64,000 nt of DNA from Cheilinus undulatus (Eukaryota): NCBI RefSeq assembly GCF_018320785.1, contig NC_054879.1:26520546-26584545 (forward strand), written 5' to 3'. Positions 41,318 to 42,946 of this stretch are shown piece by piece (the first letter of the stretch is position 1; each line of letters starts with the position of its first letter). The notes under the pieces are model-generated. The model saw only the letters and a program-made list of their open reading frames with translations. It was not told the DNA's origin and did not search any database. A program made the translations under genes and the position numbers.

Positions 41318-42946
41318 CAGTCATGGACGAAAATATTGGCACCCCTGGAATTTTTCCAGAAAATACATCATTTCTCCCAGAAATTGTTGCAATCAACAAA
41401 TGTTTTTGGTATACACATGTTTATTGCCTTTATGTGCATTGGAACAACACAAAAAATCCGAAGAAAAAATAAAAAATTGACATCATTTTACACAAAACTC
41501 AAAAAATGGGCCGGACAAAATTATTAGCACCCTCAACTTAATATTTGGTTGCACAACCTAGGAAAAAATAACTGAAACCAATCAATTCCTTTAACCATTG
41601 ACAAGATTCTTACACCTCTCAACTGGAATTTTGGACCACTCTTCTTTTGCAAACTGCTCCAGGTCTCTCAGATTTGAAGGGTGCTTCTTCAACAGCAGTT
41701 TTGAGATCTCTCCATACGTGTCCAATGGGATTTAGATCCGGACTCATTGCTGGCCACTTCAGAACTCTCCAGCTTTGTCTCCAACCATTTCTTGGTGCTT
41801 TTTGAGGTATGTTTGGGGTCATTGTCCTGCTGGAACACCCATGACCTCTGACCCAGACCCAGCTTTCTGACACTAGGCCCTACATTGTGGCCAAAAATCT
41901 TTTGATAGTCTCAGATTTCATGATTCCTTGCACACAGTCAAGGCACCCAGTGCCAGAGGCAGCAAAATAACCCCAAAACATCCTTGAACCTCCACCATGT
42001 TTGACTGTAGGTACTGTGTTCTTTTCTTTGTAGGCCTCATTCTGTTTTCTGTAAACAGTAGAATGACGTGCTTTTCCAAAAAGCTCTACCTTAGTCTCAT
42101 CTGTCCACAAAATGTTCTCCCAGAAGGACTGAGGCTTACTCAGGGACATTTCAGCAAACTCCAGTCAGGCTTTTTTATGTCTCTTTGTCAGCAGTGGGGT
42201 TCTCCTCGGTCTCCTGCCATAGCGCTTCATCTCATTCAGATGACCACGTATGGTCCCAGCTGACACTTTTGCACCCTGAGTCTGCAGGACAGCCTGAATT
42301 TGTGTGAAAGTTGACTGAGGATGTTTATCCAACGTTCCAACTATCCTGCGTTGCATTCTTTTGTCAGTTTTTCTCTTCCGTCCACGTCCAGGGAGATTAG
42401 CCACAGTTCCATGGGTTATAAACTTCTTGATTATATTACACACAGTGGACAAAGGAATTTCAGGATCTCTGGAGATGGTCTTTAACCTTGAGATTGTTCA
42501 TATTTTTCCACAATTTTTCTTCTCAAGTCCTCAGACAATTCTTGGCTCCTCTTTCGCTTCTCCATGCTTGGTGTGACACACACAGGCAGACAACACAAAG
42601 GTTGAGTCAACTTTTAGACATTCTAACTGGCTTGAGGTGGGATTTCTAGATTGCCAGCACCTGTTACTGCCACAGGTGAGTTTAAATGAGCATCACATGC
42701 TTGAAATAAAATGATTTACCCACAGTTTTCAAAGGGTGCCAATAGTTTTGTCTGGCCCATTTTTTGAGTTTTGTGTAAAATTATGTCAATTTTGTCTTTT
42801 TTCTTCGGATTTTTGTGTTGTTCCAATGCACATAAAGGGAATAAACATGTGTATACCAAAAACATTAGTAATTGCAACAATTTCTGGGAGAAATGATGTA
42901 TTTTCTGGAAAAATTCCAGGGGTGCCAATATTTTCGTCCATGACTG
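41318..42946 (-). mobile_element. Tc1-like element, family C, with ~210-bp terminal inverted repeats and near-intact transposase; TA target duplication
   Basis: Left end TA|CAGTCATGGACGAAAATATTGGCACCCCTGG..., right end ...CCAGGGGTGCCAATATTTTCGTCCATGACTG|TA. The inverted arms, 41318-41530 and 42716-42946, are almost identical. Minus ORFs at 42165-42452, 41880-42149 and 41619-41873 give a Tc1 transposase broken by only about two frameshifts. Confidence 0.9.

What the first reader, a model, noticed from the sequence alone, without database searches (positions are those of the whole stretch)
41318..42946. Possibly recently active Tc1 element with long inverted repeats and only ~2 frameshifts
The two ~210-bp arms, 41318-41530 and 42716-42946, are nearly identical by eye and flanked by a TA duplication. 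The transposase reads through in three minus-strand ORFs: MSTVCNIIKKFITHGTVANLPGRGRKRKTDKRMQRRIVGTLDKHPQ..., then ...[68 protein letters not shown]..., then ...[24 protein letters not shown]... The DDE-domain landmarks are intact. Only a couple of frameshifts separate these ORFs, so the copy is young. Intact relatives may exist elsewhere in the genome.
Basis: seen in the sequence. Interest (0 to 1): 0.5.

Follow-up and report, generated by a model that had tools for sequence, protein, structure and literature searches.

The report
Decayed Tc1-like transposon copy in intron
This is a full-length but dead copy of an ordinary fish/frog Tc1-type "cut-and-paste" transposon, whose transposase gene carries five frameshifts, three stop codons and a mutated catalytic residue, so it is not a young or active element.

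Summary
A 1629-bp element lies at 41318-42946, flanked by TA on both sides. Its terminal inverted repeats are about 215 bp long (41318-41533 and 42733-42946) and differ by 9 substitutions and 2 one-base indels (95.8% identical). A Tc1/Sleeping-Beauty-type transposase remnant lies on the minus strand.

Alignment to intact relatives shows five frameshifting deletions, not about two. There are also three premature stop codons. The catalytic glutamate of the DD34E triad is changed to glycine (NPIEHLW to NPIGHVW).

At sites conserved across six relatives, the copy has 28 private substitutions in 911 sites (3.1%). They are spread evenly over codon positions, which is the pattern of neutral decay. 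Each arm carries about five derived changes.

The nearest intact relatives recovered come from other assemblies. They are 83-85% identical in protein and 88-90% in DNA. The repaired protein is 48% identical to Sleeping Beauty and 46% to zebrafish ZB.

The copy is antisense to a PARP4 gene and upstream of its 3' exons, probably in an intron. It is an ordinary, long-dead member of a known kind, and interest is low. The source genome could not be searched.

The parts
41316..41317 (.). TA target-site duplication, left flank
   Evidence: Read directly; the arm alignment extends through ATA on both sides.
41318..41533 (-). Inverted-repeat arm, 216 bp. It is the 3' arm relative to the transposase sense strand.
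   Evidence: Local alignment and blastn. It is homologous to the 3' arms of L001, L004, L006 and L007.
41325..41344 (.). Outer direct-repeat core (GGACGAAAATATTGGCACCC), a presumed transposase-binding site
   Evidence: (I4). It is identical to the outer repeat of the other arm. Binding is inferred by analogy with Sleeping Beauty IR/DR elements.
41513..41532 (.). Inner direct-repeat core (GGACAAAATTATTAGCACCC)
   Evidence: It lies 188 bp from the outer core and carries a G-to-A change relative to most relatives.
41538..42565 (-). Transposase pseudogene: 1028 nt where intact relatives have 1035 nt (344 codons plus stop)
   Evidence: ATG at 42565 and TAA at 41538-41540. DNA alignment to the intact L002 ORF. 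Repair test.
42482..42482 (-). Frameshift 1: 1-bp deletion (GGTTA^AAGACC; relatives GGTTACAAG)
42165..42167 (-). Premature stop 1: TGA at codon 134 (relatives AGA, Arg)
41911..41911 (-). Frameshift 2: 1-bp deletion (AAATCTG^AGAC)
41772..41772 (-). Frameshift 3: 2-bp deletion (ACAAAG^CTGGAG)
41722..41724 (-). Catalytic glutamate codon changed to glycine (GAA to GGA; NPIEHLW to NPIGHVW)
   Evidence: Aligned to E in SB100X. It is E in 11 of 12 aligned relatives and K in one. It is a private substitution at 41722.
41689..41689 (-). Frameshift 4: 2-bp deletion (GCTGTTG^AAGAAG)
41582..41593 (-). Premature stops 2 and 3: TAA at codon 327 (from TAT) and TGA at codon 330 (from CGA, a CpG transition)
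41560..41560 (-). Frameshift 5: 1-bp deletion (TTCC^TAGG; relatives TCCAAAGG)
42566..42732 (-). 5' untranslated spacer between the 5' arm and the ATG
   Evidence: Aligned with relatives
42733..42946 (-). Inverted-repeat arm, 214 bp. It is the 5' arm relative to the transposase.
42734..42753 (.). Inner direct-repeat core of the 5' arm (reverse complement AGACAAAACTATTGGCACCC)
   Evidence: (D1). It has two derived changes, G to A and T to C.
42920..42939 (.). Outer direct-repeat core of the 5' arm
   Evidence: (D1, start-to-start spacing 186)
42947..42948 (.). TA target-site duplication, right flank

Best explanation
This is a full-length but inactivated copy of a Tc1/mariner-superfamily DNA transposon. 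[quoted passage not shown]

Shown: it is flanked by a TA duplication, as cut-and-paste Tc1 integration produces. The transposase gene has since lost its reading frame through five small deletions, acquired three nonsense codons, and lost its catalytic glutamate. About 3% of its conserved sites have changed.

Inferred: the element was inserted by a family transposase that bound the outer and inner repeat in each roughly 215-bp arm. It cannot encode a transposase. At most it could be moved in trans by a functional transposase from another copy, because its termini and outer repeats are unchanged. It lies antisense to a PARP4 gene and upstream of its 3' exons, most likely in an intron, where it is probably a neutral passenger.
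For: Structure:
- TA|CAGT...ACTG|TA ends, with arms of 216 and 214 bp at 95.8% identity.
- Outer and inner repeat cores GGAC(G/A)AAA(A/T/C)TATT(G/A)GCACCC lie 186-188 bp apart in both arms.
- A full-length homologue in Phoxinus has the same ends and a TA duplication (1641 bp).

Protein:
- The repaired 344-aa translation hits HTH_SB (52.7 bits, cut-off 43), HTH_Tnp_Tc3_2 (65.9, cut-off 31.5) and DDE_3 (44.1, cut-off 28.6).
- The SB100X catalytic domain 5cr4 matches at E=5.6e-76.
- 4843 database relatives have E<=1e-20, the best 83-85% identical, some named Tc1 transposases by their sources.

Decay:
- 5 frameshift deletions and 3 stops.
- Catalytic E to G.
- 28 private substitutions in 911 conserved CDS sites, split 13:9:6 over codon positions. 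Intact relatives show a third-position excess, for example L002 at 13:7:23.
- About five derived changes on each arm.

Context: PARP4 exons map to the + strand at 48005-54327.
Against: - The host genome could not be searched, so no same-genome consensus exists. The 3% figure rests on cross-species relatives.
- Some or all ORF lesions could have been inherited from an already defective source copy rather than acquired in place.
- The outer 79 bp of both arms show no difference at all, fewer than an even spread of the 11 arm differences would predict (roughly P=0.01, computed after the fact).
- The intronic position is inferred. The upstream exon at 34.2 kb is conserved as short ORFs in other genomes but is not shown to be PARP4. 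The candidate exon at 41029-41139 has no confirmed homologue.
Confidence: 0.85

Rival explanations
1. One reading: a young, recently active or nearly intact autonomous Tc1 copy, only one or two mutations away from function.
For: The arms are about 96% identical, the TA duplication is intact and the element is full length. Long stretches of transposase are readable. The outer 79 bp of both arms are identical.
Against: There are eight ORF-breaking lesions plus a catalytic E-to-G change. About 3.1% private substitutions show no codon-position bias. Both arms carry derived changes. For comparison, copies of a truly young element such as zebrafish ZB are >99% identical with 100% identical TIRs (PMC7913693).
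Confidence: 0.02
2. A recently inserted but non-autonomous copy. The ORF lesions were inherited from a defective source element that kept being mobilised in trans by an active family member. The insertion would then be much younger than the ORF decay implies.
For: All 11 differences between the arms lie in the inner 137 bp, while the outer 79 bp, including both outer repeats and the termini, are identical. That is what lineage-level selection on the ends would give. The TA duplication is perfect. Relatives with intact ORFs exist in several vertebrate assemblies.
Against: The inner repeats, which are required in Sleeping Beauty-type elements (established knowledge), carry three differences between the arms. 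The clustering is a post-hoc observation with P about 0.01. No second copy is present in the 64-kb window. Nothing shows an active source in this genome.
Confidence: 0.12
3. A domesticated or exapted transposon fragment that now serves the host PARP4 gene, for example as an antisense transcript, a regulatory element or an exonised piece.
For: It probably lies within the PARP4 transcription unit, about 177 bp from a candidate splice donor.
Against: No long ORF survives on either strand. Substitutions are neutral-like. No Rfam match was found in the window. No conservation evidence could be obtained.
Confidence: 0.02

Closest known systems
Sleeping Beauty (reconstructed salmonid Tc1-like element; DD34E, IR/DR group)
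   Same: TA target duplication, about 1.6 kb length, arms of about 215 bp with an outer and an inner repeat each, and a roughly 340-aa transposase with paired-like HTH domains and a DD34E domain. The repaired protein is 48% identical over 339 aa (SB10 sequence supplied from memory). The solved SB100X catalytic domain 5cr4 matches at E=5.6e-76 and the PAI subdomain 2m8e at E=8.6e-6.
   Different: Protein identity is only 48%. The terminal and repeat sequences differ: CAGTCATGGACGAAAATATTGGCACCCC here against CAGTTGAAGTCGGAAGTTTACATACAC in SB (the latter from memory, not tested with a tool). This copy is non-functional.
ZB (Tc1-8B_DR), native active zebrafish Tc1 element (PMC7913693)
   Same: Same architecture: ZB is 1597 bp with 201-bp TIRs, a 341-aa transposase and a TA duplication. 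The proteins are 46% identical over the first 256 aa.
   Different: The ZB TIR starts CAGCGGGGAAAATAAGTATTTGACAC and is unrelated in sequence. No element with the TGGCACCCC terminus occurs in that paper's zebrafish Tc1/mariner library. ZB copies are >99% identical and intact, whereas this copy is decayed.
Unnamed Tc1-like transposases in Erpetoichthys calabaricus, Polypterus senegalus, Phoxinus phoxinus, Leptobrachium leishanense and Xenopus tropicalis, and their elements (L001, L002, L004-L007)
   Same: This is the same family. The proteins are 77-85% identical over the full length and the DNA is 81-90% identical. In Phoxinus the match runs end to end, with the same CAGTCATGG termini, the same arm layout and a TA duplication.
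   Different: Those copies retain ORFs of 331-355 aa, and nearly all have E at the catalytic position. The window copy has lost the ORF and the catalytic E.
Passport / PPTN (plaice) and the Eagle/Glan/Barb/SSTN/RTTN group (PMC2651795)
   Same: An IR/DR-group Tc1 element of 1626 bp, with a patchy distribution across fishes and frogs and reported absence from zebrafish.
   Different: The Passport end primers (CAGTACATAATGGGAAAAAGTCCAAGGG and GGGTGAATACTTATGCACCC) do not match this element's ends.

Membership tests
Tc1/mariner superfamily, DD34E/Tc1 family | TA target-site duplication flanking the element | tested here: met
   TA at 41316-41317 and at 42947-42948
Tc1/mariner superfamily, DD34E/Tc1 family | Terminal inverted repeats and an overall length of about 1.3-2.4 kb | tested here: met
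   1629 bp; arms of 216 and 214 bp, 95.8% identical, blastn E=5e-93
Tc1/mariner superfamily, DD34E/Tc1 family | Transposase with an N-terminal bipartite (paired-like) helix-turn-helix DNA-binding domain | tested here: met
   On the repaired translation, HTH_SB scores 52.7 bits (cut-off 43) and HTH_Tnp_Tc3_2 scores 65.9 bits (cut-off 31.5)
Tc1/mariner superfamily, DD34E/Tc1 family | DDE_3 catalytic domain with a D...D(34)E triad | tested here: not met
   The domain is present (DDE_3 44.1 bits, cut-off 28.6), and D156, D248 and the 34-residue spacing are preserved. Position 283 is G instead of E in this copy, while 11 of 12 aligned relatives and SB100X have E. The family feature is met by the lineage but lost in this copy.
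Autonomous (intact) Tc1 element | A single uninterrupted ORF of about 340 aa | tested here: not met
   5 frameshifting deletions and 3 in-frame stops
IR/DR subgroup of Tc1-like elements (Sleeping Beauty type) | Long arms (about 200-250 bp), each with a terminal and an internal copy of a roughly 20-30-bp repeat | tested here: met
   Outer and inner cores share 16 of 20 positions (left arm; 15 of 20 in the right arm) and lie 186-188 bp apart in both arms
IR/DR subgroup of Tc1-like elements (Sleeping Beauty type) | The repeats are bound by the element's transposase | not testable with these tools
   Needs footprinting or EMSA with a reconstructed transposase
Sleeping Beauty family proper / ZB family proper | High similarity of transposase and TIRs to SB or ZB | tested here: not met
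   48% aa identity to SB and 46% to ZB. The ZB TIR sequence is unrelated. This is a separate lineage within the IR/DR Tc1 group.

The most novel reading that the evidence does not exclude
The copy may belong to a defective sub-lineage that is still mobilised in trans by an active transposase in the source genome, which would explain the perfectly conserved outer 79 bp of both arms. The family, shared at 77-85% protein identity by bichirs, a cyprinid and frogs, may have spread by recent horizontal transfer. It could then yield a further naturally active vertebrate Tc1 transposon distinct from SB and ZB.
Probability: 0.1. Interest if true: 0.3.

Novelty: already known. Interest (0 to 1): 0.07.

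Why it matters
It matters little beyond annotation. The region should be masked as a decayed Tc1-like IR/DR DNA transposon, antisense to and probably inside an intron of PARP4, and not treated as a candidate active element. The family does have relatives with intact ORFs in other vertebrate assemblies and is only 46-48% identical to SB and ZB. A survey of the source genome for intact copies could therefore be of modest interest to people who develop transposon tools.

Tried and rejected
- Second copy in the window: none found.
- Identifying the source species: the 497-aa PARP4 exon gave one unnamed Logan hit at 65%. A 41-aa conserved exon gave only unnamed short ORFs. Literature searches for the accessions GCA_013565635, SRR13709139, SRR19345933 and JACCDQ found nothing. 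The host, and so the substitution rate, remain unknown.
- ORF 41008-41244 next to the insertion as a conserved exon: no Pfam hit, and only three weak, repetitive hits in the 1.84-billion-protein library. This is unresolved.
- Membership of ZB: rejected. Membership of Passport: the ends differ and the protein was unavailable.
- Rfam scan of the window: no hits.
- Bacterial promoter/terminator scan: uninformative for a eukaryotic element.
- Arm-to-arm identity as a clock: rejected. TIRs are not regenerated at transposition, and an intact-ORF Phoxinus copy has arms only 97.2% identical.

Full report
**Observation.** The sequence at 41318-42946 is a discrete 1629-bp element. It begins CAGTCATGG and ends CCATGACTG, and a TA lies immediately outside each end (41316-41317 and 42947-42948). 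Local alignment of the left end against the reverse complement of the right end gives arms of 216 bp (41318-41533) and 214 bp (42733-42946). They match at 208 of 217 aligned bases, with 9 substitutions and two single-base indels. That is 95.8% identity ignoring gaps and 94.9% counting them, with blastn E=5e-93. No other copy or fragment of the element occurs in the 64-kb window.

**Arm anatomy.** Each arm has a terminal and an internal copy of a roughly 20-bp motif.
- The outer copy is GGACGAAAATATTGGCACCC in both arms.
- The inner copies are GGACAAAATTATTAGCACCC and AGACAAAACTATTGGCACCC.
- Outer and inner copies lie 186-188 bp apart.

[quoted passage not shown] That these repeats are transposase-binding sites is inferred from that analogy and is not shown here.

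**The transposase.** Translating all three frames shows that these ORFs are in one and the same frame, and that the coding path leaves and re-enters it.

I recovered DNA for relatives with intact or nearly intact ORFs and aligned it to the element (for retrieval; for alignment).
- L002: a Logan contig with a 344-aa ORF, 88% DNA identity.
- L001: an NCBI contig, 90% DNA identity over 1567 bp including both arms.
- L004: Phoxinus phoxinus, a full 1641-bp element with a TA duplication, 85% DNA identity.
- L005, L006 and L007 (Polypterus).

Relative to these, the window copy has the following lesions.

| Lesion | Window position | Detail |
|---|---|---|
| Frameshift 1 | about 42482 | 1-bp deletion |
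| Premature stop 1 | 42167 | TGA, from AGA |
| Frameshift 2 | about 41911 | 1-bp deletion |
| Frameshift 3 | about 41772 | 2-bp deletion |
| Catalytic residue | 41723 | GAA to GGA, E to G |
| Frameshift 4 | about 41689 | 2-bp deletion |
| Premature stop 2 | 41593 | TAA, from TAT |
| Premature stop 3 | 41584 | TGA, from CGA |
| Frameshift 5 | about 41560 | 1-bp deletion |

Re-inserting the 7 missing bases yields a 1035-nt frame with exactly three internal stops, at codons 134, 327 and 330. The list of ORF-breaking lesions is therefore complete.

The catalytic triad is also damaged. The position aligned with the catalytic glutamate of SB100X (NPIENLW) and with E in 11 of 12 aligned relatives (NPIEHLW; one has K) is glycine here (NPIGHVW). 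The second aspartate (QQDNDPKH) is encoded only in the frame between two compensating deletions. The claims 'only ~2 frameshifts' and 'DDE landmarks intact' are therefore both wrong.

**Extent of decay.** I counted sites where this copy carries a base seen in none of the six relatives, restricted to CDS sites where those relatives are unanimous or nearly so.
- There are 28 such private substitutions in 911 sites (3.1%).
- They fall 13:9:6 over codon positions 1:2:3, which is indistinguishable from uniform.
- Relatives with intact ORFs show the third-position excess expected under purifying selection: L002 13:7:23, L006 17:21:36, L001 4:3:9.
- Using other family members as outgroups, the differences between the arms resolve into about five derived changes on each arm, one of them a CpG transition in an inner repeat. 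That is about 2-2.5% per arm, consistent with the CDS figure.

With the zebrafish rate used in the ZB paper (4.13e-9 per site per year; PMC7913693), 3% corresponds to roughly 7 million years. A slower-evolving host would make it several-fold older. The host is unknown, so this is only an order of magnitude.

Arm-to-arm identity is not a valid clock. Unlike LTRs, TIRs are not made identical at transposition. The Phoxinus copy with an intact ORF has arms only 97.2% identical.

**Classification.**
- The repaired 344-aa protein passes the curated Pfam thresholds for HTH_SB, HTH_Tnp_Tc3_2 and DDE_3.
- It matches the solved SB100X catalytic domain at E=5.6e-76.
- It is 48% identical to Sleeping Beauty (SB10 sequence from memory) and 46% identical to zebrafish ZB over 256 aa (sequence from the supplement of PMC7913693).
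- The D-D spacing and the position of the lost E fit DD34E.
- The ZB terminal repeat is unrelated, and no element with this terminus occurs in that paper's zebrafish Tc1/mariner library.
- Passport's published end primers also differ. Its protein could not be compared.

The family is well represented in the protein database. There are 4843 hits at E<=1e-20, the best at 83-85% identity. The named ones come from reedfish, bichir, a minnow and frogs, and some are labelled Tc1 transposases by their sources. It is thus a separate lineage within the known IR/DR group of DD34E/Tc1 elements, with the patchy host range typical of such families.

**Context.** A Logan-assembled protein carrying the Pfam PARP4_MVP-ID domain maps by tblastn to + strand exons at 48005-48943, 49566-49625, 49842-50045, 51573-51770 and 54121-54327. 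A conserved coding block lies at about 34.2 kb on the same strand. A candidate exon with good splice signals lies at 41029-41139, 177 bp upstream of the insertion, but it could not be confirmed. The element therefore lies antisense to PARP4 and upstream of its 3' exons, probably in an intron.

**Mechanism.**
- Shown: the structure, the TA duplication, family membership and the state of decay.
- Inferred from established Tc1 biology: a family transposase bound the four repeats, excised the element from a donor site and integrated it at a TA, duplicating it. The copy then decayed neutrally. It can no longer supply transposase.
- Open: it retains perfect termini and outer repeats, so mobilisation in trans cannot be excluded.

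**An oddity.** All 11 differences between the arms lie in the inner 137 bp, and the outer 79 bp are identical. An even spread would give this with a probability of about 0.01, but the test is post hoc. It leaves room for a rival reading (confidence about 0.1). Under that reading the ORF lesions were inherited from a defective source that kept being mobilised in trans, so the insertion would be younger than the ORF decay suggests. Only a search of the source genome for copies sharing the same lesions can decide this.

**Verdict.** The 'young, nearly intact, possibly active' interpretation is not supported. This is an ordinary, long-inactive Tc1-like transposon copy of a known kind, and interest is low.

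Noticed in passing
window 47459-54327 (+): 3' exons of a PARP4 (vault PARP) gene. A spliced Logan protein with the Pfam PARP4_MVP-ID domain maps to 48005-48943, 49566-49625, 49842-50045, 51573-51770 and 54121-54327. The last exon is 94% identical in protein, and the large proline-rich exon is 66% identical.
   Followed up: partly
window 41029-41139 (+): Candidate 111-nt exon (DVGFGLFSSDENDEDDMGMFVTCSTKVESYSPQYEPT) with acceptor ctctgttacag|G and donor ACG|gttagt, 177 bp upstream of the transposon insertion. No Pfam hit and no convincing homologue in 1.84 billion proteins, so it is unconfirmed.
   Followed up: partly
window 41318-41396 and 42868-42946: The outer 79 bp of the two transposon arms are identical. 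All 9 substitutions and 2 indels between the arms fall in the inner 137 bp (post-hoc P about 0.01). This could be chance, or lineage-level selection on the ends of a trans-mobilised defective element.
   Followed up: partly
window 54727-54898: A perfect tandem duplication of an 89-bp unit (1.9 copies, 100% match) that starts with a run of 24 T, about 400 bp downstream of the last mapped PARP4 exon. It may be a recent duplication or an assembly artefact.
   Followed up: no
loci L001, L002, L004-L007 and proteins P0001-P0010: The same Tc1 family, at 77-85% protein identity, occurs in bichir and reedfish (Polypterus, Erpetoichthys), a cyprinid (Phoxinus), and frogs (Leptobrachium, Xenopus). The zebrafish Tc1/mariner library of PMC7913693 has no element with this terminus. 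This patchy distribution is the kind usually attributed to horizontal transfer.
   Followed up: partly
window 15893-17137 (+): Two adjacent ORFs (143 and 146 aa) with a Cys/His-rich motif (CWRGCGQTGDYAHIFWDCP). By eye they resemble the C-terminal tail of a LINE ORF2. Neither ORF has a Pfam hit.
   Followed up: no
window 34200-34320 (+): A conserved coding block (…FTSPTANRHMLRALAQAGGGAYEFFDTKTKHNWAEK, followed by a GTAAGA donor). It is 78-96% identical to short unnamed ORFs in other genomic assemblies and is presumably an upstream exon of the same gene.
   Followed up: partly
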